Shown here piece by piece: positions 14,407 to 45,585 of a DNA stretch of 45,585 bases (within the stretch, counting starts at the first letter, position 1; each line of letters begins with the position of its first letter). The DNA lies in the IMG/VR virus record IMGVR_UViG_648276647_000019, positions 1 through 45,585 of that record; one strand, given 5' to 3'. The stretch comes from a virus (Duplodnaviria > Heunggongvirae > Uroviricota > Caudoviricetes). Made by a program: the position numbers and the translations under genes. The notes under the pieces were generated by a model. That model saw only the letters and a list, made by a program, of their open reading frames with translations. It was not told the DNA's origin and ran no database searches.

Positions 14407-14856
14407 TCACAAGTGAGGGAAGATTCTACGTAATATTGACCAGCACCTTCCGAAGGTATATAGCGAAATCATAAGGGAGGATAAGCCTAACAGTATGAAT
14501 AAGAAATCAATTGGCTGGCCCACAACAATAACATCATCTGGCAAAAACATAGCAATCAATGGGAATACGCATGCGACGATAAGTGTTATTCCTGTTGAAA
14601 GTAAGCGGTTTACTATTGTTGGCAATATGTTGTTTCGCTTAAGAGCATTGATAGCTCCTTCCTTATCGCTATCTGCGCTACTGAATATAGAAATTGCTGC
14701 CAGAACAAACCCAAACAGGATCCCTGAAATTGTCGAAAGCACACCTGCTGTTGTGAGAACGTCAGCATGTTTCATTGGCTTAAACAGTCTGGTTGCCACA
14801 TAGGTAAGTACAGCCAAGAGGACTGCCTTCCAGAGAATAGTCGCTAATTCTCTCAT
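14407..14856 (-). CDS. Small multi-pass membrane protein (about 149 aa, about four predicted TM helices), second gene of the inserted module
   Basis: Several long hydrophobic stretches; lower-GC region; 10-20 nt downstream of the 313-aa gene on the same strand; the two ATGs (14868, 14856) are ambiguous. Confidence 0.6.
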   Translation of the reverse strand: MRELATILWKAVLLAVLTYVATRLFKPMKHADVLTTAGVLSTISGILFGFVLAAISIFSSADSDKEGAINALKRNNILPTIVNRLLSTGITLIVACVFPLIAMFLPDDVIVVGQPIDFLFILLGLSSLMISLYTFGRCWSILRRIFPHL

Positions 14857-14877
14857 TGAATCCCCCATGTCGAGTTA

Positions 14878-15822
14878 TCAAGTTCTGTTAGCGAGTTCAT
14901 ACTGCGCTAAGTAGTTAGCGTTCTCAATTTTAGCAGATATCATCGCTGTTCTGATATCGGAATCAGATGGATAGCCACTTTTAACAACTATTGTTTTTGT
15001 ACCGATCAACACTTGATCAAGTAGGCTTTTCGGCGTTTTGTTTGTGGGTTCAGTGACATCAATTTTCTTGATTTTTAGTCCACCAGAACCTTTGGGAAAC
15101 AGCTCAATCAACTCCTTGATTGCGTCGGTGACTGAGGTTTTAAGATAGTTAAAACCAGCCTTTTTAGGGCGTAAACGACCTCGCATATTCAATCTTAGGT
15201 GCGATCCCCCCATCCCAACGACCATGTCAATGATGTCATTAGTCAAATCGTTCTTAATATTGTAATTAGCTTTATTGAAGTTTCTAGGCGCTGCAATCGT
15301 AAGGTCGAAACTGCGCAAGATATTGCCATCTTCGAGCAGTTCTTTCATGCTCTCATGCTTCCATATTGCTTCAAAAGTAACGTTGTTCATTTTGGTTTTG
15401 TTGTACAAAATAAACGCTAAATCATTAACTTTTGGTCCTAAATGGTTGAGAGTCATGGCTAATAAGTCTGTCTCGTAGTAATACATAAAGTATGTACGCT
15501 CTACGACAGAATCTTTATCGCTAAGGGGTATCGTACGTTCGCTGCCAGTTGTCCTGTCCTCAATAAACGGTAACAGGCAGTCCCTTCTCCAGGATACGTA
15601 GCCAAAGTAGCTCTTCTGTGTTGCGTCCTTTTCAAGTATGACGAGCTTTAAACCTCGATTTTGGGTTTCAGTTGTGTGCACCAAAGGGAAGGTGATCGGG
15701 GCGACTGCAGTAATTTGATCAAAAGCTAGCTTTGCTGTAGACGAACCATCTTTTTTGCTTCCATTACCAGTGAAAAAACCAACTCTAACTCGACGAGTTT
15801 TGTTCTTGTCTTGAGTGCTCAT
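14878..15822 (-). CDS. Hypothetical cytoplasmic protein (313 aa from ATG 15822), first gene of the inserted module; candidate defence protein
   Basis: Lys/Asn-rich, lower-GC ORF; the 415-aa ORF-track version reads through terminator hairpins and A-tracts, so the ATG at 15822 is preferred; no motif assigned. Confidence 0.6.
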   Translation of the reverse strand: MSTQDKNKTRRVRVGFFTGNGSKKDGSSTAKLAFDQITAVAPITFPLVHTTETQNRGLKLVILEKDATQKSYFGYVSWRRDCLLPFIEDRTTGSERTIPLSDKDSVVERTYFMYYYETDLLAMTLNHLGPKVNDLAFILYNKTKMNNVTFEAIWKHESMKELLEDGNILRSFDLTIAAPRNFNKANYNIKNDLTNDIIDMVVGMGGSHLRLNMRGRLRPKKAGFNYLKTSVTDAIKELIELFPKGSGGLKIKKIDVTEPTNKTPKSLLDQVLIGTKTIVVKSGYPSDSDIRTAMISAKIENANYLAQYELANRT

Positions 15823-15870
15823 TCTCGATCCGAAACAAAGTTTAACAACTGGATGAAAACTACAATAAAA

Positions 15871-15900
15871 ATTAGAGAAAATCACTAATGCGGTCCGCAA
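15871..15900 (-). promoter_or_regulatory. Candidate sigma70 promoter for the two-gene module (-35 TTGCGG, 18 nt, -10 TCTAAT on minus strand)
   Basis: Read from the reverse complement of 15871-15900; about 45 nt upstream of the ATG at 15822. Confidence 0.3.
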
Positions 15901-15948
15901 AAAATACTGTAATCTGTTAAGAATGGTCACTTCGCCACACAACTTAAA

Positions 15949-15970
15949 CCCGCCGCGAGCGGTTTTTTTC
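15949..15970 (+). terminator. Plus-strand intrinsic terminator (CCGC stem, loop, GCGG, then T7)
   Basis: ACCCGCCGCGAGCGGTTTTTTT; would stop rightward read-through from Q before the lysis genes. Confidence 0.45.
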
Positions 15971-16002
15971 ATTTCTGGCATCCCGCAGGCAGAAATGCAG
16001 GC

Positions 16003-16032
16003 AAAAAAAAAGCAGGGCGGCGCGCGCCCTGC
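16003..16032 (-). terminator. Minus-strand intrinsic terminator (8-bp GC stem GCAGGGCG/CGCCCTGC followed by U9)
   Basis: Plus strand shows A9 then the perfect-arm hairpin; on the minus strand the hairpin is followed by nine U. Confidence 0.55.
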
Positions 16033-16169
16033 AAAAATGGATGGCGCCAGGGGATGATGGATACCCCTTGACGGTTTCATGTTCTCAACGCACAAGATAG
16101 TATAAAGAGCGGAGAGTGTATACAAAGGAAGTGTTGCAGAATTACAGGAAATGATGCGTTTTGTTATTA

Positions 16170-37142: not shown

Positions 37143-39962
37143 GTGGGAAAGGGCAGTAAAAAAGGGCACACGCCGCATGAAGCCCCGGATAACCTGAAAT
37201 CCACACAACGGCTGAGTGTGACTGACGTGCTGAGTGAAGGTCCGGTTGTGGGGCCTGTTAACGGGCTGAACAGCCTGCTGATTAATGACACGCCGGTTGT
37301 GGATCCTGCCGGAAACGTGAACCTGCATGGCGTGACCGTGGTTTACCGGACCGGAGAGGAGGAGCAGACGCCGCCGGAGGGATTTACCGCTTCCGGTGCG
37401 GAGACGGTATTGGGTACGGAAGTGAAGCATGACGCGCCGGTCACCCGGACCATCACGTCGGCAAATATCGACCGTCTGCGCTTTACCCTGGGGGTGCAGG
37501 CCCTGGTGGAAACCACATCAGAGGGGGACCGCAATCCGTCAGAGGTCCGTCTGCAGGTTCAGATCCGGCGTGACGGTGACTGGGTGACGGAAAAGGACAT
37601 CACCATTAAGGGGAAAACCACCTCGCAGTATCTGGCCTCCGTGGTGGTGGATAACCTGCCGCCGCGGCCGTTTGATATCCGGGTGTGCCGGGTGACGCCG
37701 GACAGCACCACTGATCAGCTGCAGAATAAAACCTTCTGGTCATCGTACACCGGACTCATCGATGTGAAACAGAGTTATCCCGGTACCGCCGTGGCCTTTG
37801 TGCAGGTGGAGTCAGCGCAGTACGGCAGTCAGCAGGTGCGGATTAATTATCACATCCGGGGAAAGATTGTCCGCGTGCCCTCTAACTATAACGCCATTGC
37901 CAGACGGTACCACGGGCTCTGGGACGGTACATTCATGCCTGCGTGGACGGATAACCCGGCCTGGTGTCTGCTGGATATGCTGACCCACCCGCGTTACGGC
38001 ATGGGAACCTCCCTGACGGTGGACGATATTGATATCTGGTCCCTGTACGCCATTGCGCAGTACTGTGACCAGCCCGTGCAGGATGGTTACGGCAGCTCGG
38101 AGCCGCGGATGGCCTGTAATGCGGTGCTGTCCACACAGCGCAGGGCCTGGGATGTGCTGGCTGACTTCTGTTCGCTGATGCGCTGTATGCCGGTGTGGAA
38201 CGGACAGACGCTGACGTTTGTGCAGGACCGGCCGTCGGATAAGGTGTGGACTTATCACCGCAGTAATGTGGTGATGCCGGATGACGGGGCACCGTTCCGT
38301 TACAGCTTCAGTGCCCTGAAGGACCGTCATAATGCCGTTGAGGTGAACTGGGTTGATCCGGATAACGGCTGGAAGACGGCAACCGAACTGGTGGAGGACA
38401 CAGAGGCCATCCGCCGTTACGGACGTAATGTCACCCGGATGGAGGCCTTTGGCTGTACCAGCCGGGGACAGGCGCACCGCGCCGGGCTGTGGCTGATTAA
38501 AACGGAGCTGCTGGAGACGCAGACGGTGGACTTCAGCGTGGGCGCAGAAGGGCTTCGCCATGTGCCGGGCGATGTCATTGAAATCTGTGATGATGATTAT
38601 GCAGGCGTGAGCACTGGCGGGCGTATTCTGGCCGTTGACCTTCCGGCACGGACCCTGACGCTCGACCGTGAAATCACGCTGCCGTCTTCCGGCACCACGC
38701 TGATAAGCCTGGTCGACGGGAAGGGGGAGCCGGTCAGCGTGGCGGTTCAGTCCGTCACCGACGGCGTGAAGGTGACCGTGAGCCGTGTGCCTGACGGCGT
38801 GGCAGAATACAGCGTGTGGGGGCTGAAGCTGCCGGTGCTGCGTCAGCGCCTGTTCCGCTGTGTGAGCATCCGCGAGAACGATGACGGCACATATGCCATC
38901 ACCGCCGTGCAGCATGTGCCGGAAAAAGAAGCCATTGTGGATAAGGGGGCCCGTTTTATGCCCCGGCCGTCAGCCGGTCCGGTGGCATTATCCCGGCTGA
39001 CAACGGCGATAATTTCCGGTCATGACGGCATCAGCGTCAGGGTCTGCTGGGCGGCACCGCAGGCAGGCAGCGGCTGGCAGTTCAGGGTCCGGCTCATGAC
39101 AACCGCACCGGACGATGACAGCGGTGACGTCCGGTGGCTGTTGTCCGAAAAGGTGACCCGTGACACGGAGACCGTTTTCTCTTCCCTGGCACAGGGCGAT
39201 TACCGGGTCAGCCTCAGTGCCACAGAGGGCACCGGACAGTACTGTGACCCCGTCACGGCGGATTTTACCGTCGGCAGTCCGCCGCCTCCGGTCAGGACGG
39301 AGGTCATTCCCGGATTCTGTAAAGTGACGCTGGTTCCGCATCAGGCGCAGGCACAGACGGACGTGACATATGATTTCTGGTTTTCGGAACAGAGACTGAC
39401 AGATCCACAGAAGGCGGAAACCACGGGGACCTGGCTGGGGCGGGGGCTTTTCTGCACTCGGGAAAACCTGACGGACAGCAGCCATGATTACTGGTTTTAT
39501 GTGCGCAGCGTGAGCGCGACCGGAAAGTCGGCGTTTACGGAGGTGTCCGGCAGGCCGTCAGCCTCAGAGGGGGCGATTGATACGGAAATGTTGTCACCGG
39601 CACTTCAGTCCCGGATAGGCAGTGTTCCGGAGAGCGGGCATATTGACAGCGTGTCCGCGCGGCCGGACCAGACGGTGAGCCGCCGGGTGACCTGGTCCCC
39701 GTCTGACACGGATGCCCGGGAGCTGACCGCCGTGATCAGCGTGGTTTCAGAAGGGTACACAGGGACACTGACGCTGACGGCGGGCGAAAAAACATTTTCT
39801 TATTCCGGTGGCCAGTTGCCGGTGTCCGGCTCTCTGGTGGTGACGGCAGGGATCACCCCGCCGTCAGACATTGTTCTGTCCCTGAGTGCCGCGGAGGGCC
39901 GGTGTACGGCATCGGCGGGGCTGACCGTTTCGCGGTTATCCGGTTCATTCAGCGGAGGGTAA
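37143..39962 (+). CDS. J: Central tail fibre / tail tip protein J (939 aa; lambda-like to about residue 870, divergent shorter C-terminus)
   Basis: N-terminal about 870 aa closely parallel lambda gpJ as recalled; the C-terminus differs and the protein is about 190 aa shorter than lambda J. Confidence 0.9.
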   Translation: MGKGSKKGHTPHEAPDNLKSTQRLSVTDVLSEGPVVGPVNGLNSLLINDTPVVDPAGNVNLHGVTVVYRTGEEEQTPPEGFTASGAETVLGTEVKHDAPVTRTITSANIDRLRFTLGVQALVETTSEGDRNPSEVRLQVQIRRDGDWVTEKDITIKGKTTSQYLASVVVDNLPPRPFDIRVCRVTPDSTTDQLQNKTFWSSYTGLIDVKQSYPGTAVAFVQVESAQYGSQQVRINYHIRGKIVRVPSNYNAIARRYHGLWDGTFMPAWTDNPAWCLLDMLTHPRYGMGTSLTVDDIDIWSLYAIAQYCDQPVQDGYGSSEPRMACNAVLSTQRRAWDVLADFCSLMRCMPVWNGQTLTFVQDRPSDKVWTYHRSNVVMPDDGAPFRYSFSALKDRHNAVEVNWVDPDNGWKTATELVEDTEAIRRYGRNVTRMEAFGCTSRGQAHRAGLWLIKTELLETQTVDFSVGAEGLRHVPGDVIEICDDDYAGVSTGGRILAVDLPARTLTLDREITLPSSGTTLISLVDGKGEPVSVAVQSVTDGVKVTVSRVPDGVAEYSVWGLKLPVLRQRLFRCVSIRENDDGTYAITAVQHVPEKEAIVDKGARFMPRPSAGPVALSRLTTAIISGHDGISVRVCWAAPQAGSGWQFRVRLMTTAPDDDSGDVRWLLSEKVTRDTETVFSSLAQGDYRVSLSATEGTGQYCDPVTADFTVGSPPPPVRTEVIPGFCKVTLVPHQAQAQTDVTYDFWFSEQRLTDPQKAETTGTWLGRGLFCTRENLTDSSHDYWFYVRSVSATGKSAFTEVSGRPSASEGAIDTEMLSPALQSRIGSVPESGHIDSVSARPDQTVSRRVTWSPSDTDARELTAVISVVSEGYTGTLTLTAGEKTFSYSGGQLPVSGSLVVTAGITPPSDIVLSLSAAEGRCTASAGLTVSRLSGSFSGG

Positions 39963-39963
39963 T

Positions 39964-40737
39964 ATGCCGGAGGCAATCAGAATTTCAGGTATCCTGCAGG
40001 ATGGTACGGGGAGACCGGTGACGGACTGTACCATTGTCCTGAAGGCCAGGGTGACCACACAGGATGTTATTGTGAAAACCGCCGGGCACGGAAGCGTGGA
40101 TCCGGCGGGGTATTATGCCATGGATGTTTTTCCCGGTGAGTATGAGGTGATCCTGTGGATGGAGAAACAGCCACCCGCGCATGTGGGGGTGATAACGGTA
40201 TACCAGGATTCTCCGTCCGGCACCCTGAACAGTTTTCTGCTGACGCCGGGCATCAGTACGCTGACACCGGCAGTCCTGAAGCAGTTTGCCGATATTGCCG
40301 CCCACATCGATGTGCAGGAAGAAAAAATCAGTGACGCGGTTAAACGGGCAGAGGCTGCCGTCGGAAAAGCGCAGGCACTGACGGGCGTGCCCGATGAGCC
40401 GGGGTGCTTTGTGATGACGCGTGACGGCTGGCTGAAACGGGAACGTTTTGATGTGGCGGTGCAGAGCGTGTCAGACAACGGCACGATCGACGCGTCGTCG
40501 CACCAGTGTTTTTATATTGACGGGACCAAAAAACTGTCGCTGACATTCACCGGGCTGCCGGCTGGCCGGGTCGTGATGCTGGTTCTGGTGGTCAGGGGGA
40601 GTGGTGGCCAGCTGGTGTGGCCGGATACGCTGCACTGGTCGTGGGGGATCCCGCCGTCACCGGGAAAAACCCGGACGATTATTCCGGTGATCTGGGACGG
40701 GGAGGGGCTGTATGGAGGAGCCCCTGTCGTTATCTGA
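39964..40737 (+). CDS. Hypothetical tail-associated protein (257 aa), translationally coupled to J
   Basis: ATG 1 nt after the J stop with GGAGGG RBS; beta-rich composition; function unknown. Confidence 0.5.
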   Translation: MPEAIRISGILQDGTGRPVTDCTIVLKARVTTQDVIVKTAGHGSVDPAGYYAMDVFPGEYEVILWMEKQPPAHVGVITVYQDSPSGTLNSFLLTPGISTLTPAVLKQFADIAAHIDVQEEKISDAVKRAEAAVGKAQALTGVPDEPGCFVMTRDGWLKRERFDVAVQSVSDNGTIDASSHQCFYIDGTKKLSLTFTGLPAGRVVMLVLVVRGSGGQLVWPDTLHWSWGIPPSPGKTRTIIPVIWDGEGLYGGAPVVI

Positions 40738-40756
40738 TGAAACGGAGGAGCCGGAA

Positions 40757-40951
40757 ATGTTTGCACTTTTACTGAACGGAAAGCCGCTCGATCCGGCAAC
40801 GTTTATTGATGTGGGTTATGTGACGCTGAGACCTTTTTATGCCAGCCACCTGCCGCTGGTGATAAAACATGCGGTGGTTAGTGTGGGGCATGAGAATGTG
40901 CTGCCGGTACTGACCGGACGGACCTGGCTGACATATCTGATTCAGAACTGA
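40757..40951 (+). CDS. Hypothetical small protein (64 aa)
   Basis: ATG 40757 after GGAGGAG. Confidence 0.4.
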   Translation: MFALLLNGKPLDPATFIDVGYVTLRPFYASHLPLVIKHAVVSVGHENVLPVLTGRTWLTYLIQN

Positions 40952-40963
40952 GGTGAAATCAGC

Positions 40964-42040
40964 ATGAATATTATAAATATGGAAGGATTCAGTCAGATCC
41001 CCGCAGATGTGGAGCTGAAGGCAGCATCACCCGATAAAACTCTGGAGGTGCTGAAACGGTATGGCGTGGGGCTTATTACCGGGTGCGGAAATATCAGCAC
41101 CCTCAGTTCCCTGAAAGCGGGAACACAGGTGGTGGATACGGTGGCATATCATGGTCTGCAGGCACAGATATATGGTACCGGAAGCAATAGCGGATTCAGT
41201 CTGACGTTTCTGCTTCCTGATGTCAGGAAGGCAGCTGTCCAGGCCGGTTTCCGTTTAACCGTATCAGCCGGAAAAAAACTGACTCAGTCGCTGCTTCGGG
41301 TCGGCAGTTCATCATTTGGTACCAGCATGGCGGATGATGAGGCAACCAGTTATTATTATGAAATATTTGTCCGTTACAGGGCTGACACCTTCATTCAGGT
41401 GGAGTTGTACTGCAACCGGGTGTTGATGAAAACGGATTCATTCCCTTCCGAAGGCAGCTGGTACACGACCCGTGCGCCGGACAAGGTGGAGGTGACGCTG
41501 GGGTCGGAGAATTTTTTTGCAGGGCATGTTCACGGGACGATGACGATCGGCGATATCTATCTCGGTACAACGGACTATGGAGAGAATTTCAGTGCCGTTC
41601 CGGACCTGCTGGGCAGTGTTGAAGTGGCAGCCTGTCCGGTGGTGGCTTTTGAAGGGAATGCGCACGTCAATACCCTGGGGAAGGATGTGGTGAAAGGGCT
41701 GAACTCCGGGACTGCGGAGGCGGGGTATCTGTCCCTGCGTCCGGTTGACCAGCCGGCGGTGATTACGTTTGAAAGGCCGGATGTCGTGGGAAAGAAGGTT
41801 CTCGGTGTGATGGTGGGGCTTACCTGGCGGAGCAGCAGTGCGCCCAACAACCATCTGGCGTGGCAGGTCAGGCAGGGAGCGGTGGACGGACCGCTGATGG
41901 AGGAGGCCTCAGCCAAAGGAGATCCGGGGAGCTGGACAACGCTGACGCGGACATTTATGACGCCGGTGGATAATACGCCGGTGTGGGATGAACGGAATAT
42001 GCAGTTTTCCCTGGTGCTGTATAACCGGAATAATACGTGA
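40964..42040 (+). CDS. Hypothetical protein (358 aa), candidate receptor-binding/tail fibre-like or moron protein
   Basis: ATG 40964 after GAGGTG; Gly/Ser/Thr-rich beta-type composition; no motif recognised. Confidence 0.5.
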   Translation: MNIINMEGFSQIPADVELKAASPDKTLEVLKRYGVGLITGCGNISTLSSLKAGTQVVDTVAYHGLQAQIYGTGSNSGFSLTFLLPDVRKAAVQAGFRLTVSAGKKLTQSLLRVGSSSFGTSMADDEATSYYYEIFVRYRADTFIQVELYCNRVLMKTDSFPSEGSWYTTRAPDKVEVTLGSENFFAGHVHGTMTIGDIYLGTTDYGENFSAVPDLLGSVEVAACPVVAFEGNAHVNTLGKDVVKGLNSGTAEAGYLSLRPVDQPAVITFERPDVVGKKVLGVMVGLTWRSSSAPNNHLAWQVRQGAVDGPLMEEASAKGDPGSWTTLTRTFMTPVDNTPVWDERNMQFSLVLYNRNNT

Positions 42041-42050
42041 GGTGGAACAG

Positions 42051-42317
42051 ATGACGACCCGGAAAATGAGGGTAAATGAAGAGCCGCAGCGGGTGACGGG
42101 CGGGAATGAGACTGCGGTGATACAGTTTAATGGCACCGTGGCGTTGTGTGACAGTGCGGAGAAACCGGCAACGGGTGCGGCAGCGATGTATTTTTCTTCG
42201 GACGGACGTTACCAGACCCTGACAATCACGCCGCCGTTCAGGGCGTGGATATGGTCCGCCGTGCCGGAAAAAACAGTTGATGTGGTGATAAGTGACTGGA
42301 CGGAATCGGTGAGCTGA
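42051..42317 (+). CDS. Hypothetical protein (88 aa)
   Basis: ATG 42051 after GAGGTGG; 10 nt after the upstream gene. Confidence 0.45.
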   Translation: MTTRKMRVNEEPQRVTGGNETAVIQFNGTVALCDSAEKPATGAAAMYFSSDGRYQTLTITPPFRAWIWSAVPEKTVDVVISDWTESVS

Positions 42318-42348
42318 CGGAGGCGCTCCGGGACACCGATAAAAGGAA

Positions 42349-42382
42349 ACCCCGGCTTATGCGGAGAAGAGCGTAAGCCGGG
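42349..42382 (+). terminator. Hairpin (10-bp stem CCCCGGCUUA/UAAGCCGGGG) closing the tail-distal operon
   Basis: Long perfect-arm stem read from sequence; weak U-tract. Confidence 0.4.
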
Positions 42383-42572
42383 GCGCTTTGTCGAGCTATC
42401 GAAAAAGGGCGAAACATCCCGCAGGGACACTACAGGATGTTTCTCGTCACACGAATACAGCATAACGACGTCTCTGGAGTGTGCCGTGTGACTGTCAGTA
42501 TTTATCGCTTTTAATCTCCGGGTGATCAAGTGCTTTGCATATTCTGGCCGGGAGATTTCGTAAAGAGACAAA

Positions 42573-42615
42573 AACCGCAGACACGACGTATGCAGGACGT
42601 GCTGCGGTTGGCTGG
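42573..42615 (-). terminator. Minus-strand terminator downstream of dinI
   Basis: Hairpin ACCGCAG...CUGCGGU followed by UUUUUGUCUCUUU on the minus strand. Confidence 0.45.
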
Positions 42616-42675
42616 TGAACTTTCGATAGTGCGAGTATTGAATGATTTCCAGCCGTTACCGATTTTACGTGTTTA

Positions 42676-42924
42676 TTAGTGAACAAACCACTCGTCAGCA
42701 GACTCCCAGGTATCTTTCAGAGTCTCCTGAACAAATGTTTTTGCAGAATCCTTATCTGCTGTGCGTGTAACAGAAAGCCCATCATTGCTGGTGGCTTTTA
42801 CGATCACTTCTACATCGTCATAACGCTTACTGATGCGCCGAGTTAATTCTTCCTTTAACGCATCCACAGCACCGTTTGGCATTTTAGTCATTTTCTCTTT
42901 GGCTATGCAGATTTCAATACGCAT
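42676..42924 (-). CDS. dinI: DNA damage-inducible protein I homologue (DinI family)
   Basis: 82 aa with DinI-like ends (MRIEICIAK...[11 protein letters not shown]); tandem LexA boxes upstream. Confidence 0.9.
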
Positions 42925-42937
42925 AAAAATCCCTCTA

Positions 42938-42985
42938 TACTGTGTTTGTATACAGTGTTATTTTTATCTGTATAAATAAACAGTG
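42938..42985. promoter_or_regulatory. Two tandem LexA (SOS) boxes upstream of dinI
   Basis: TACTGTGTTTGTATACAGTG (42938-42957) and CTGTATAAATAAACAG (42968-42983), both CTG-N10-CAG. Confidence 0.65.
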
Positions 42986-44083
42986 TCAAGAGGTCTTGTT
43001 TCTGCTCTTTTGGAGTTCTTCAAAACGATTATGTAAAGATTTCGGATACAGTTCGGTATATACCTGCCATAGCACGTTTAATGAACGATGCCCTGTAACT
43101 TGAGCGACTTCCTCAATACTAAAACCAGCCTCAAATAAGCGACTTGCCCCTTCTCTACGCAAATCATGGTATCGCAGATCTTTAATACCTAATTTGCTTC
43201 TTACCCTCTGAAATCCTGCGGTAACAGAAGTGCTGTTATATGGAAAAATGAATTCTGATTTTTTTGGTTGTCGCTGGACGATATCCCAGGCTTCCCCAAG
43301 CAAGGCAACTTTCATATGGTTACCTTCCTTTTTACGTGGATCTTTCCTATCTCTTACTAGTATAGATTTTTGTTCTTGGTCGAGATCTTCCCATCGTAAC
43401 CGGCATAATTCTCCGATTCGCATACAGGACCACACAGAAAATTTGAGGATATCAACGAACGGAATTTTTGAGCATTTATGAGTAGATCGTTGTTGAAGGC
43501 CTTCAATGAGCATGTCCAGTTCATCAGATGCTGGTCTACGATTACGACGGTTTGATTTACCAATCAAACCGAGTTTAAGTAGATATGGACGAGCGCTTTT
43601 CGCCGGGTTTGATGTGTAATTGATTCCGTATACAGGTTTTGCCGCATCCAGAACACTGCCAAGATAACTAACATCGTGGCTGACTGTTGCTGGGCCTGCA
43701 CCAGCGTTGTTTCTTAGCCTGCAATGTTCAATTACGTCATTTTCTGTCAGTTCAGATAGTTTGATCGCGGATATGTCACTATCCATAAGCAGTTCCAGCA
43801 CATATCTTTTAGTACGGCCTGCTTTACCTCCGGCATTTGGGTCATTTAAATATTTGTGTAGTAAGTCACGGACTGTAAGTCCATCAACAGCATTTGATGA
43901 TGGAATGCCATATAGATCTAATTCCATCACTTTCTGTGCGCCCCATGTTTTGGCATGAGCATGTTTAGGGAATGTTTTGCTTTCCCTGTAAGTGATAACA
44001 CCTTTTTCTTTGATAATCACATTACAGCGATAGCGTGGTGTGCCATCGGATTTTAGTCGTTTCTCTATGTTATAGTACGCCAT
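42986..44083 (-). CDS. int: Tyrosine-type site-specific integrase (dusA-associated)
   Basis: 365 aa with tyrosine-recombinase catalytic-domain motifs (R...HDLRR...Y near the C-terminus); abuts the dusA 5' end. Confidence 0.95.
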   Translation of the reverse strand: MAYYNIEKRLKSDGTPRYRCNVIIKEKGVITYRESKTFPKHAHAKTWGAQKVMELDLYGIPSSNAVDGLTVRDLLHKYLNDPNAGGKAGRTKRYVLELLMDSDISAIKLSELTENDVIEHCRLRNNAGAGPATVSHDVSYLGSVLDAAKPVYGINYTSNPAKSARPYLLKLGLIGKSNRRNRRPASDELDMLIEGLQQRSTHKCSKIPFVDILKFSVWSCMRIGELCRLRWEDLDQEQKSILVRDRKDPRKKEGNHMKVALLGEAWDIVQRQPKKSEFIFPYNSTSVTAGFQRVRSKLGIKDLRYHDLRREGASRLFEAGFSIEEVAQVTGHRSLNVLWQVYTELYPKSLHNRFEELQKSRNKTS

Positions 44084-44260
44084 TACACGACCTCGTTATT
44101 TCGGGTTCCCATAAAACGTGGGAACCTGTGCGGGAACCTAACGCGAGAAAAATAGCCTGAAATGTTCAAAAATGCACGATAATCCTGAAACACAGAAAAC
44201 TAATCAAACCAGCGTCATGCCTGAAAAAACTGGCGCTTACTGGAGTTCTCGGTTTAGCAT
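44084..44260. other. Approximate prophage right attachment region within the 5' end of dusA
   Basis: Integrase start at 44083 and dusA start at 44172; the dusA N-terminal residues differ from the E. coli K-12 N-terminus as I recall it, while the rest looks native. Confidence 0.4.
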
Positions 44261-45209
44261 TGCTCCTATGCTTGACTGGACGGACAGACATTGCCGTTAT
44301 TTCCTGCGTCTGCTTTCCCGCAATACGTTGCTGTATACCGAAATGGTGACCACAGGGGCGATTATTCACGGTAAAGGTGATTACCTGGCGTACAGTGAAG
44401 AAGAACATCCGGTAGCGTTGCAACTCGGGGGTAGCGATCCGGCGGCGCTGGCACAGTGTGCGAAGCTGGCAGAAGCGCGCGGATATGATGAGATCAACCT
44501 GAATGTCGGCTGCCCGTCTGACCGGGTGCAGAACGGCATGTTTGGTGCGTGTCTGATGGGTAATGCGCAGCTGGTTGCCGACTGCGTGAAAGCGATGCGC
44601 GATGTGGTGTCGATTCCGGTGACGGTGAAAACGCGTATTGGCATCGATGATCAGGACAGCTATGAATTTCTCTGCGATTTCATCAACACCGTTTCCGGCA
44701 AAGGTGAGTGTGAGATGTTCATCATCCACGCACGTAAAGCCTGGCTTTCTGGGTTAAGTCCGAAAGAAAACCGTGAGATCCCGCCGCTCGATTATCCGCG
44801 TGTGTATCAACTGAAGCGTGACTTTCCGCATCTGACGATGTCGATTAACGGTGGTATCAAGTCGCTGGAAGAAGCTAAAGCGCATTTGCAACATATGGAT
44901 GGCGTGATGGTCGGGCGCGAGGCGTATCAGAATCCGGGGATTCTGGCGGCGGTAGACCGAGAGATTTTTGGTTCCTCGGATACCGATGCCGATCCGGTGG
45001 CGGTAGTGCGCGCCATGTATCCGTACATTGAGCGTGAACTCAGCCAGGGGACGTATCTCGGCCATATTACCCGGCATATGCTGGGCTTGTTCCAGGGTAT
45101 TCCTGGCGCGCGGCAGTGGCGACGTTATTTAAGTGAAAATGCCCATAAAGCGGGTGCAGACATTAATGTGCTGGAACACGCGCTCAAACTGGTGGCGGAT
45201 AAGCGTTAA
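44172..45209 (+). CDS. dusA: tRNA-dihydrouridine(20/20a) synthase DusA (host gene; 5' end likely phage-supplied)
   Basis: 345-aa protein with the DusA FMN-binding TIM-barrel sequence; ATG at 44172. Confidence 0.9.
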
Positions 45210-45342
45210 CTTTTCACCAAAAAGTAGTCAAATTCACCACGCCCTGCGCACCGTCGCGGGGCGTTTTGCTGTTAAATCAATAGATTATTTTTGGCATGAT
45301 TCTTGTAATGCCAGCAAGAGATTTCATATTTGGGAGAGCATC

Positions 45343-45585
45343 ATGCTGGAACTACTTTTTGTAATTGGCTTTTTTGTCATGCTGATGGTCACTGGTGTTT
45401 CGTTGCTGGGTATTATCGCCGCGCTGATTGTGGCGACGGCCTTCATGTTCCTCGGCGGTATGCTGGCATTGATGATTAAGTTGCTGCCGTGGCTGCTGTT
45501 GGCGGTTGCGGTGGTGTGGGTGATCAGGGCGATTAAAGCACCAAAAGTGCCGAAATATCAGCATTATGACCGCTGGCGTTACTAA
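45343..45585 (+). CDS. pspG: Phage shock protein G (host gene)
   Basis: 80-aa hydrophobic protein from the internal ATG at 45343; known dusA neighbour in E. coli; the longer ORF from 45133 is rejected. Confidence 0.8.
   Translation: MLELLFVIGFFVMLMVTGVSLLGIIAALIVATAFMFLGGMLALMIKLLPWLLLAVAVVWVIRAIKAPKVPKYQHYDRWRY

What the first reader, a model, noticed from the sequence alone, without database searches (positions are those of the whole stretch)
37143..42317. Lambda-like J with a replaced C-terminus followed by a four-gene tail-distal module of unknown function
J follows lambda J for about 870 residues and then diverges and ends about 190 residues earlier, so the lambda LamB-binding C-terminal region appears absent. 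A 257-aa gene starts 1 nt after the J stop, followed by 64-, 358- and 88-aa genes, all with good RBSs and closed by a 10-bp-stem hairpin (42349-42382). This is where lambda has lom/stf/tfa, but none of these proteins resembles them as I recall. The module could be an alternative receptor-binding apparatus or a set of morons.
Basis: partly seen in the sequence, partly recalled or inferred. Interest (0 to 1): 0.5.

Follow-up and report, generated by a model that had tools for sequence, protein, structure and literature searches.

The report
Short-J lambdoid tail with lectin-like add-on
An E. coli lambda-like prophage has swapped lambda's long LamB-binding tail needle and side fibres for a stubby tip plus a rare four-gene set, which most likely forms a short, collar-mounted, lectin-like host-binding device; this is an unusual variant of a known kind of phage host-range module, not a new kind of system.

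Summary
J (37143-39962, 939 aa) matches lambda J at 69% identity only to residue ~813 (not ~870). It then ends in an unrelated 126-aa domain, 193 residues short of lambda J. Four tightly packed genes (257, 64, 358, 88 aa) and a strong hairpin follow.

The 257-aa protein does resemble Stf: residues 4-132 are the Stf N-terminal collar domain (Pfam PF08400, 45% identity to lambda Stf), solved in PDB 9e7m.

- **257-aa protein:** a minimal side fibre made of collar, a short coiled coil, and a knob shared with myovirus tail-fibre C-termini.
- **358-aa protein:** a rare family (about 12-19 clusters among billions of proteins). The confident model has two beta-sandwich domains, one ConA-like. Its nearest full-length fold match is a virion protein of phage AchV4 detected by mass spectrometry.
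- **64-aa protein:** a free-standing copy of 17-residue repeats. In 20 of the 22 other loci examined (L016 and L018 differ), these repeats end the tail-fibre or baseplate protein (Stf-type, Mu Gp48-type) just upstream of a 358-family gene.
- **88-aa protein:** function unknown.

All parts show dN/dS of 0.06-0.43 across E. coli and Salmonella copies. Best reading: an alternative host-recognition apparatus, not morons. It is a new variant of a known kind, of moderate interest.

The parts
37143..39581 (+). J, residues 1-813: lambda-type tail-tip hub (hub domains, FNIII-A, two Ig/FN3-like domains)
   Evidence: 69% identical to lambda J residues 1-816. Pfam FNIII-A_GpJ, Phage-tail_3, Ig_J and Ig_J_second. 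Matches PDB 8iyk and 9e7m over residues 1-813.
39582..39962 (+). J, residues 814-939: replacement C-terminal domain, predicted as a small 8-strand beta-sandwich. Lambda's central-fibre shaft and LamB-binding domain are absent.
39964..40737 (+). 257-aa minimal side tail fibre: Stf-type collar domain (residues ~4-93), linker, short coiled coil (~100-140), C-terminal knob (~143-257)
   Evidence: PF08400 E 2e-34. 45% identical to lambda Stf. Matches the Stf chain of PDB 9e7m, E 6e-27. The knob matches the C-terminus of phrog_3904 tail fibres. It is 38-45% identical to the C-termini of tail-fibre proteins of large myoviruses such as W70 and 4MG. It is 43% identical to the end of the 579-aa fibre of Salmonella prophage L002.
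40757..40951 (+). 64-aa protein made of about three 17-residue repeats; proposed docking adaptor between the knob and the 358-aa protein
   Evidence: 61-62% identical homologues sit directly upstream of 358-family genes in L011 and L002. It matches an HMM of the 17-aa repeats that end the upstream fibre or baseplate proteins elsewhere (9.9-25.9 bits; 0 of 2000 shuffles reach these scores).
40964..42040 (+). 358-aa two-domain beta-sandwich protein with a ConA-like lectin/glucanase domain; proposed distal receptor-binding protein
42051..42317 (+). 88-aa accessory protein, function unknown, present only in the E. coli-type copies
   Evidence: phrog_4772 E 2.8e-14, function unknown. No Pfam hit even at E 5. 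No tblastn hit in phage records and none in IMG/VR. 77-83% identical in L007 and L044 with dN/dS 0.25-0.30. Absent from L011 and L002.
42350..42383 (.). 13-bp-stem hairpin closing the late operon; probably a bidirectional terminator
   Evidence: -33.3 kcal/mol, z = -5.6. The minus-strand reading is followed by TTTCCTTTTA.

Best explanation
The segment from about 38950 to 42570 is a swapped-in host-recognition cassette in an otherwise ordinary dusA-integrated lambdoid prophage of E. coli.

**Shown:**
- J keeps the lambda hub and FN3 domains but ends in a compact ~100-residue beta-sandwich. Lambda's long central fibre and LamB-binding domain are gone.
- The 257-aa protein carries the Stf collar domain. 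In Ur-lambda, 12 copies of that domain ring the gpV/gpM junction and carry four trimeric side fibres.

**Inferred:**
- The 257-aa protein forms four very short trimeric stubs: collar, a ~40-residue coiled coil, and a knob.
- The 64-aa repeat protein bridges the knob to the 358-aa protein.
- The 358-aa protein, with its ConA-like jelly-roll domain, is the distal and most variable component. It probably binds a surface carbohydrate such as LPS, O-antigen or capsule.
- J's small C-terminal domain may still contact an outer-membrane component to trigger DNA ejection.
- The 88-aa protein is an accessory, either an assembly helper or a small cap. This is the weakest assignment.
For: **Collar anchor**
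- PF08400 E 2e-34, 45% identity to lambda Stf, and a match to the Stf chain of 9e7m.
- The collar architecture comes from PMC12617516.

**J end replaced but functional**
- No similarity to lambda J beyond ~813.
- The new end is conserved in E. coli and Salmonella copies with dN/dS 0.12-0.24.

**The cassette travels as a unit**
- Short J + 257 + 64 + 358 recurs in E. coli OU349849 at a different chromosomal site, in metagenome contigs, in L044, and in S. enterica subsp. salamae.
- The knob + 64 + 358 trio also occurs behind a 579-aa Stf-like fibre in a podovirus-like Salmonella prophage (P22-type portal, SU10-type adaptor).

**Fusion ('Rosetta stone') evidence**
- In the ~40%-identity branch of the 358 family, the gene immediately upstream is a genuine virion protein. 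It is a Mu Gp48-type baseplate wedge subunit in Mu-like prophages, or an Stf-type fibre in lambda-likes.
- That protein ends in 2-7 tandem 17-aa repeats (consensus EPLVINRxxLQSGxxT). The 64-aa protein matches these repeats.

**358-aa fold**
- Confident model with a ConA-like domain.
- The best full-length fold match is AchV4_0026. It lies downstream of a short (888-aa) J-like protein and a 240-aa fibre. It was detected in virions by LC-MS/MS (PMC7996906).

**Variation pattern**
- The 257-aa protein is the most conserved part: 94-98% identity, dN/dS 0.06-0.09.
- The 358-aa protein is the most divergent in the L044 comparison (76.5%) and has the highest dN/dS against L007 (0.43); against L007 only p88 is lower in identity (88% vs 77%).

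**Operon features**
- Gaps of 1-19 nt, no + strand promoter or terminator inside, late-gene GC, no signal peptides.
- The first 12 residues of the 358 family are nearly invariant (M1 I3 N5 E7 G8 F9 Q11 I12), even between members at 36% identity. This is what a conserved docking segment would look like.
Against: - No member of the 358-aa family, the J C-terminal domain or the 88-aa protein occurs in any of 50,697 deposited phage genomes. There is therefore no direct virion evidence for this family.
- The link to AchV4 proteins is fold-level only. hhalign probability is 0.6%, and ConA-like jelly rolls are very common folds.
- The match of the window's own 64-aa protein to the repeat HMM is weak (9.9 bits). 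It was scored against a tiny database, although no shuffle reached it.
- The 358-family gene is often the last prophage gene before host DNA (L005, L006, L011). That is also where morons sit.
- Two loci (L016, L018) have a DUF4376-type protein without repeats as the nearest upstream ORF.
- No multimer prediction could be run, so knob-64-358 contacts are untested.
- The J C-terminal model rests on a two-sequence alignment (mean pLDDT 61).
Confidence: 0.55

Rival explanations
1. Only J and the 257-aa stub are virion parts. The 64-, 358- and 88-aa genes are morons, that is lysogenic-conversion, exclusion or defence cargo carried at the end of the late operon and not built into particles.
For: They lie at the prophage end next to dinI/int, and in L005, L006 and L011 the 358-family gene is the last phage gene. 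The family is rare and absent from all deposited phage genomes. The 88-aa gene is dispensable in some lineages.
Against: - There is no own promoter or terminator, gaps are 10-19 nt, and GC matches the late genes.
- There is no signal peptide or clear membrane segment and no PADLOC hit.
- In Mu-like prophages the gene lies between the Gp48 baseplate wedge and the tail fibre with its chaperone. In L002 it lies between a fibre and further tail genes.
- It is almost always preceded by the 17-aa repeats, which are fused to virion proteins.
- Its fold matches a virion protein verified by mass spectrometry.
Confidence: 0.2
2. The 358-aa protein is virion-bound, as in the best explanation, but acts as an enzyme. 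It would be a small polysaccharide lyase or glycanase that cuts capsule or O-antigen, not a passive lectin.
Against: Sequence identities are 4-14%. No lyase or glycosidase family is detected by Pfam or NCBIfam. No PL7 or GH16 signature motif was recognisable by eye among the invariant residues (inference). Lectin, CBM and phage Dit/BppU-type non-catalytic domains score about as well.
Confidence: 0.1
3. The 358-aa protein is an assembly factor, a large chaperone or scaffold for the repeat-bearing fibres, that is not retained in the mature particle.
For: It sits in the position that fibre chaperones (tfa) usually occupy, directly after the fibre gene. The module contains no Caudo_TAP or DUF4376 chaperone.
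Against: - At 358 aa with two beta-sandwich domains it is unlike known fibre chaperones.
- It is the fastest-diverging part, whereas chaperones track their fibre.
- In L014 and L002 separate chaperone-type genes (Caudo_TAP, DUF4376) are present as well.
Confidence: 0.08
4. The locus is decay: a J truncated by deletion and leftover gene fragments in a defective prophage.
For: J is 193 residues shorter than lambda J, and the 257-aa fibre is far shorter than the 400-700-aa Stf proteins.
Against: All five reading frames are intact. They are conserved over dS up to ~2 with dN/dS 0.06-0.43 in E. coli and Salmonella lineages at different insertion sites. The rest of the window encodes a full lambdoid set, including repressor, Rha/Ash, gpA-type terminase, head and tail genes.
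Confidence: 0.04

Closest known systems
Ur-lambda side tail fibre Stf (collar domain; PDB 9e7m; PMC12617516)
   Same: The N-terminal ~90 residues are homologous (45% identity) and are followed by a linker and a coiled coil. The gene sits in the same place downstream of J. The gpM/gpV-type tail it would clasp is present.
   Different: Total length is 257 aa against 774 aa for intact Stf. The coiled coil is only ~40 residues. There is no gp37-like distal domain and no Tfa chaperone. The protein ends in a knob shared with myovirus fibres and is followed by the 64- and 358-aa genes.
Lambda J / TipJ central tail fibre (PDB 8iyk, 8xcj)
   Same: Residues 1-813 are 69% identical: hub, FNIII-A and two Ig-like domains.
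   Different: It lacks the Phage_Tail_Tip shaft and the Ig_GpJ_C LamB-binding domain and has an unrelated 126-aa beta domain instead. It scores below the NCBIfam lambda_TipJ cut-off.
Siphophages with compact hubs and delegated receptor binding (T5 pb3, own knowledge; tripod-like tips of Chi, JBD30, R4C and Avs-1, PMC13612043)
   Same: A J-like hub of about 890-950 aa ends in FN3 plus a small distal beta-rich domain without a needle-like fibre. Other proteins do the host binding.
   Different: Those hubs are only distantly related in sequence. Here the hub is a close lambda relative that has lost its fibre, and the partner is anchored through the Stf collar.
Achromobacter phage AchV4 (Casjensviridae) tail-distal genes AchV4_0023 to 0027 (phrog_2448)
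   Same: The gene order is parallel: short J-like protein (888 aa), short fibre (240 aa), then ~350-aa two-domain proteins. AchV4_0026 is the best full-length fold match to the 358-aa protein, and AchV4_0025 and 0026 were found in virions by LC-MS/MS.
   Different: There is no detectable sequence similarity (hhalign probability 0.6%). AchV4 has three paralogues and no 17-aa repeat protein, and its fibre lacks the Stf collar domain.
Adaptor-plus-RBP arrangements such as lactococcal BppU-BppL, or the branched fibres of CBA120 and G7C (own knowledge; analogy only)
   Same: A virion-anchored adaptor protein non-covalently holds a separate receptor-binding protein, so heads can be exchanged.
   Different: There is no homology. 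The docking element proposed here is a tandem 17-residue repeat, either free or fused, which to my knowledge has not been described.

Membership tests
Lambda TipJ (NCBIfam NF049904 lambda_TipJ) | N-terminal hub, FNIII-A and two Ig-like domains | tested here: met
   Pfam PF24801, PF13550, PF24421 and PF24489. 69% identity to lambda J residues 1-816. PDB 8iyk and 9e7m matched.
Lambda TipJ (NCBIfam NF049904 lambda_TipJ) | C-terminal central-fibre shaft (PF09327) and receptor-binding domain (PF12421); whole-protein score above the curated cut-off | tested here: not met
   No PF09327 or PF12421 hit, although full-length J proteins in L005 and L006 have both. NCBIfam score is 1389.5 against a cut-off of 1950, matching profile positions 1-809 of 1163.
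Stf-type side tail fibre (Pfam PF08400 phage_tail_N) | N-terminal collar domain | tested here: met
   119 bits against a cut-off of 26.6. 45% identity to lambda Stf. PDB 9e7m Stf chain matched, E 6e-27.
Stf-type side tail fibre (Pfam PF08400 phage_tail_N) | Long coiled-coil shaft, gp37-like distal receptor-binding region and a cognate Tfa (Caudo_TAP) chaperone gene | tested here: not met
   Only 257 aa, with similarity to Stf ending at about residue 130-170. No Caudo_TAP or DUF4376 domain in the 64-, 358- or 88-aa products.
Stf-type side tail fibre (Pfam PF08400 phage_tail_N) | Assembly as a 12-copy collar on the gpV/gpM junction of the virion | not testable with these tools
   Known for Ur-lambda (PMC12617516). 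Here it is inferred from homology only.
phrog_8291 (the 358-aa family) | Full-length sequence match to the family profile | tested here: met
   E 1.1e-72, residues 1-357 against profile positions 1-348 of 349. 12 homologous clusters at 36-99% identity.
ConA-like lectin/glucanase fold proteins | Jelly-roll beta-sandwich fold | tested here: met
ConA-like lectin/glucanase fold proteins | Carbohydrate binding or catalysis | not testable with these tools
   No family-level sequence match. Needs biochemistry.
Casjensviridae ~350-aa virion proteins (phrog_2448, AchV4_0025 and 0026) | Sequence-level homology | tested here: not met
   hhalign probability 0.6%. The 358-aa protein hits phrog_8291, not phrog_2448.
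Casjensviridae ~350-aa virion proteins (phrog_2448, AchV4_0025 and 0026) | Same two-domain fold over the full length | tested here: met
   Foldseek E 2.6e-15, TM 0.64-0.65 over the whole chain.
Prophage morons (lom/bor type) | Own promoter and terminator, atypical composition, exported or membrane product | tested here: not met
   No + strand promoter or terminator between the genes. GC 0.51-0.59, like the late genes. No signal peptide or clear TM segment. No Ail_Lom domain, unlike L011 and L043.
Anti-phage defence systems (PADLOC) | Match to a known defence protein model | tested here: not met
   No hit for any of the four proteins at E 0.1.

The most novel reading that the evidence does not exclude
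The 17-residue-repeat peptide plus the ConA-like ~350-aa protein form an undescribed plug-in adhesin system that moves between siphovirus, myovirus and podovirus tails. The repeats are the universal socket. They occur fused to Stf-type fibres or Mu Gp48-type baseplate wedges, or free as the 64-aa protein docking on a fibre knob. In this prophage lineage the system has allowed a true lambda relative to give up its central fibre altogether. Host recognition, and perhaps triggering of DNA ejection, would then run through collar-mounted lectins and not through a porin-binding J tip.
Probability: 0.3. Interest if true: 0.65.

Novelty: new variant of a known kind. Interest (0 to 1): 0.5.

Why it matters
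Lambda's J-LamB interaction is the textbook model of siphophage host recognition, and J and Stf are being engineered to retarget phage-derived particles (for example PMC11338833, listed).

A close lambda relative that naturally lacks the central fibre would show how far the lambda tail tip can be simplified. It carries a 257-aa collar-anchored stub with a separate lectin-like head. That arrangement would also offer a compact, modular scaffold for swapping receptor-binding heads.

The repeat-plus-lectin pairing appears across three tail morphotypes. If it is confirmed as a docking system, it would add a new way of attaching receptor-binding proteins to virions. It would also assign a function to two PHROG families now labelled unknown (phrog_8291 and possibly phrog_4772).

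If the proteins turn out not to be in virions, the finding reduces to an ordinary mosaic tail end with cargo genes.

Tried and rejected
- **Homologues of the J C-terminal domain.**
  - The word-indexed search with the 128-aa end found nothing.
  - A 320-aa query returned only one true relative, P0030, plus lambda-type J fragments.
  - IMG/VR and JGI metagenome scans with alignment A2 found nothing.
  - tblastn against phage records found nothing.
- **The 88-aa protein.** No Pfam hit at E 5 and no NCBIfam or PADLOC hit. tblastn against phages and an IMG/VR scan were empty. Its function remains a guess.
- **DNA-level relatives of 39600-42400.** None among phage records (blastn) and none in 5426 complete E. 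coli genomes (megablast), apart from the dinI flank.
- **PDB sequence search with the 358-family profile.** Nothing significant.
- **Sequence link between the 358-aa protein and AchV4_0026, or between the 257-aa protein and AchV4_0024.** None.
- **Link between the 88-aa protein and the small ORFs of the sibling prophage GCU-H1, or between W70_130 and DUF4376.** None.
- **Alignment A4 for structure prediction of the J end.** Rejected because MAFFT forced lambda-type C-termini onto unrelated columns. The two-sequence alignment A5 was used instead, at the cost of confidence.
- **Defence-system reading.** Considered and dropped, since there was no PADLOC hit.
- **Pseudogene or decay reading.** Dropped on the dN/dS results.

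Full report
**Setting**

The window is a lambdoid prophage of Escherichia coli integrated at dusA. Its right end (42570-45585: dinI-like gene, tyrosine integrase, dusA, pspG) is 99.5-99.8% identical to the same junction in 731 of 5426 complete E. coli genomes. The rest encodes a normal lambdoid set:
- an S24 repressor, Rha/Ash regulators and DUF968;
- a gpA-type terminase and head genes;
- a lambda-type tail operon: tape measure, M, L, K, I, J.

A sibling dusA prophage in strain GCU-H1 carries J (1232 aa), lom, stf (688 aa), two small ORFs and a tfa remnant before dinI. DNA similarity between the two stops at window position 38950 (J residue ~603) and resumes at 42570. The finding is therefore a swapped cassette inside a common prophage backbone. 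No complete E. coli genome and no deposited phage genome has DNA similar to 39600-42570.

**Checking the observation**

The ORFs, coordinates, ribosome-binding sites and the hairpin are as described. Two corrections apply.
- J is 69% identical to lambda J over residues 1-813. After that there is no similarity, apart from a faint trace to ~825 against other J proteins. J is 193 residues shorter than lambda J and lacks the Phage_Tail_Tip and Ig_GpJ_C domains that full-length J proteins carry.
- The 257-aa protein does resemble stf (see below).

**The J end**

The last 126 residues have no significant Pfam or PHROG match. They find no relative in 50,697 phage genomes, in IMG/VR or in JGI metagenomes.

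The domain is nevertheless real. It is 87-93% identical in three other E. coli-type copies and 51-53% identical in a Salmonella enterica subsp. salamae prophage and a related fragment, with dN/dS 0.12-0.24.

Compact J-like hubs without a needle are known in other siphophages, for example the tripod-like tips of Chi, JBD30, R4C and Avs-1 (PMC13612043).

**The 257-aa protein**

- Residues 4-132 match Pfam PF08400 (E 2e-34).
- Residues 4-127 are 45% identical to lambda Stf.
- Residues 4-93 match the Stf chain of the Ur-lambda tail-tip structure 9e7m.

In that structure, 12 copies of Stf residues 1-94 form a collar around the gpV/gpM junction. The collar carries four trimeric fibres through a flexible linker and a coiled coil (PMC12617516). 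The anchor therefore does not depend on the missing J end.

After a ~40-residue helical stretch, residues 143-257 form a domain with these relatives:
- the C-terminus of phrog_3904 tail fibres;
- the last ~115 residues of long tail-fibre proteins of Vequintavirinae-type and related large myoviruses, at 38-45% identity;
- the end of a 579-aa Stf-like fibre in Salmonella prophage L002, at 43% identity.

The protein is thus a minimised side fibre: collar, short stalk, knob.

**The 358-aa protein**

It belongs to phrog_8291 (E 1e-72) and has no Pfam, NCBIfam, PADLOC or PDB sequence match. The family is rare:
- 12 clusters among 5.8 billion proteins;
- 19 hits among 1.84 billion representatives;
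- 28 IMG/VR prophage contigs and one species-representative genome, E. albertii.

- matches include sialidase lectin domains, CBMs, PL7 and PL14 lyases, GH16, legume lectins and ERGIC-53;
- phage matches include the phage J-1 Dit CBM2 and a mycobacteriophage baseplate protein.

Foldseek against viral models gives full-length matches (TM ~0.65, E 1e-15 to 1e-11) to ~350-aa proteins of several siphophages. AchV4 is classified in Casjensviridae. The top hit is a 352-aa 'virion structural protein' of Achromobacter phage AchV4.

In AchV4 the gene order is: J-like protein (888 aa), 240-aa fibre, 333-aa protein, 352-aa protein, 377-aa protein. The 333- and 352-aa products were detected in virions by LC-MS/MS (PMC7996906). 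The 352-aa length identifies the top hit as AchV4_0026. The similarity is fold-level only, with hhalign probability 0.6%.

**Genomic contexts**

The full arrangement of short J (939-947 aa), a 257-259-aa fibre, a 64-69-aa protein and a 358-362-aa protein recurs in four other lineages:
- E. coli OU349849, next to different host genes;
- two metagenome contigs nearly identical to the window;
- contig L044;
- S. enterica subsp. salamae.

The 88-aa gene is present only in the E. coli-type copies.

The trio of knob, 64-aa homologue and 358-aa homologue also occurs in a podovirus-like Salmonella prophage with a P22-type portal and an SU10-type adaptor. There it sits between the 579-aa fibre and a DUF4376 protein plus further tail genes.

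The ~40%-identity branch of the family occurs in two settings:
- Mu-like myovirus prophages, between a Gp48-type baseplate wedge subunit and the tail fibre with its Caudo_TAP chaperone;
- lambda-like prophages that keep a full-length J, behind Stf-type proteins.

**The 64-aa protein and the repeats**

In 20 of the 22 other loci examined, the protein encoded just upstream of the 358-family gene ends in two to seven tandem 17-residue repeats. The consensus is roughly EPLVINRxxLQSGxxT, and the last repeat ends in a hydrophobic tail. These repeats are appended to genuine virion proteins:
- Gp48-type wedges of 319-396 aa, compared with a 224-position family profile;
- Stf-type fibres;
- a 156-aa protein that has little beyond the collar domain, a linker and the repeats.

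The window's 64-aa protein has the same 17-residue period (LPLVIKHAVVSVGHEN / VLPVLTGRTWLTYLIQN). It matches an HMM built from the fused repeats at 9.9 bits. Its Salmonella homologues score 14.2 and 25.9 bits. None of 2000 shuffles of each sequence reaches the observed score.

In the sample, a free-standing repeat protein occurs exactly where the upstream fibre ends in the knob domain. Fused repeats occur where it does not. Two loci (L016, L018) have a DUF4376-type ORF nearest upstream instead.

This fusion pattern is the main reason I propose that the repeats are the docking site for the 358-aa protein, and that the 64-aa protein bridges it to the knob. This step is inferred, not shown.

**Selection and expression**

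| Part | vs L007 (dN/dS) | vs L044 (dN/dS) | vs L011 (dN/dS) |
|---|---|---|---|
| J hub | 0.16 | 0.26 | 0.19 |
| J C-terminal end | 0.12 | 0.22 | 0.24 |
| 257-aa protein | 0.06 | 0.09 | 0.09-0.12 |
| 64-aa protein | no nucleotide differences | 0.32 | 0.12 |
| 358-aa protein | 0.43 | 0.25 | 0.19 |
| 88-aa protein | 0.30 | 0.25 | gene absent |

The L007 and L011 hub values cover J residues 1-800; the L044 value covers residues 516-813, the only part on that contig.

- The fibre is the most conserved part at 94-98% identity.
- The 358-aa protein is the most divergent part against L044 (76.5%) and has the highest dN/dS against L007, where only p88 is lower in identity. This is the pattern expected of an anchor and an exposed host-contact head.
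- The genes are 1-19 nt apart, with no + strand promoter or terminator among them.
- Their GC (0.51-0.59) lies within the late-gene range, unlike dinI and int at 0.42-0.43.
- None has a signal peptide or a convincing membrane segment.

These features argue against morons and against decay.

**Verdict**

Most likely (about 0.55), this is an alternative host-recognition apparatus with three elements:
- a lambda hub capped by a small knob instead of the LamB-binding fibre;
- four short collar-anchored stubs;
- a lectin-like head held through a repeat adaptor.

The 88-aa protein remains unexplained. The main rival (about 0.2) is that the last three genes are non-structural cargo.

The kind of thing is well known: a mosaic tail-tip and tail-fibre host-range cassette. 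The particular solution is, as far as these searches show, undescribed and absent from cultured phages. It combines a fibre-less lambda J, a minimal Stf and the repeat-plus-ConA-like pairing seen across three tail morphotypes. I rate it a new variant of a known kind, with interest about 0.5.

Noticed in passing
window 14407-16125 (- strand): Two adjacent minus-strand ORFs (415 aa and 153 aa) lie in a low-GC stretch (~0.42-0.43) between the DUF968/nin-like region and the lysis genes. They have no Pfam or PADLOC hit. This could be a moron or an unrecognised defence cassette.
   Followed up: partly
window 40757-40951 vs L007:7794-7988: The 64-aa gene has no nucleotide differences from the copy in E. 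coli OU349849, while the genes on either side differ at dS 0.13-0.17. This suggests a recent recombination patch or constraint at the nucleotide level.
   Followed up: no
window 42570-45585; L043: The dinI-integrase-dusA-pspG junction is 99.5-99.8% identical in 731 of 5426 complete E. coli genomes. The sibling prophage in strain GCU-H1 has J (1232 aa)-lom-stf-tfa instead of the module. Similarity breaks at 38950 and resumes at 42570, which marks the mosaic boundaries.
   Followed up: yes
window 42411-42443 (- strand): A second terminator-like hairpin (14 pairs followed by a T-run) faces the dinI-like gene. The 42350-42383 hairpin also has its better T-run on the minus strand, so the pair may terminate convergent transcription from both sides.
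   Followed up: partly
L014:7018-7977, L025:6788-7978, L028:6753-7970, L013, L015, L005, L006: Mu Gp48-type baseplate wedge proteins and Stf-type fibres carry C-terminal extensions of 2-7 tandem 17-residue repeats (EPLVINRxxLQSGxxT). Repeat number varies between near-identical prophages (for example L025 vs L026 vs L027).
   Followed up: partly
L041 (Achromobacter phage AchV4) 16050-19264: AchV4_0025, 0026 and 0027 are paralogues (27-29% identity; 0025 and 0026 both hit phrog_2448). This gives a tandem array of ~350-aa two-domain proteins behind a short J-like protein. Serratia phage JS26 also has three fold-level matches.
   Followed up: partly
L005:6370-7032, L006:6816-7478, L002:9137-9772: DUF4376 proteins (211-220 aa) lie directly after full-length J in some lambda-like prophages, and after the 358-family gene in the podovirus-like prophage. 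Their role (fibre chaperone?) is unclear.
   Followed up: no
L011:1306-2025: In the Salmonella salamae prophage an Ail/Lom-family outer-membrane protein gene sits between the M-like and L-like tail genes, not after J as in lambda.
   Followed up: no
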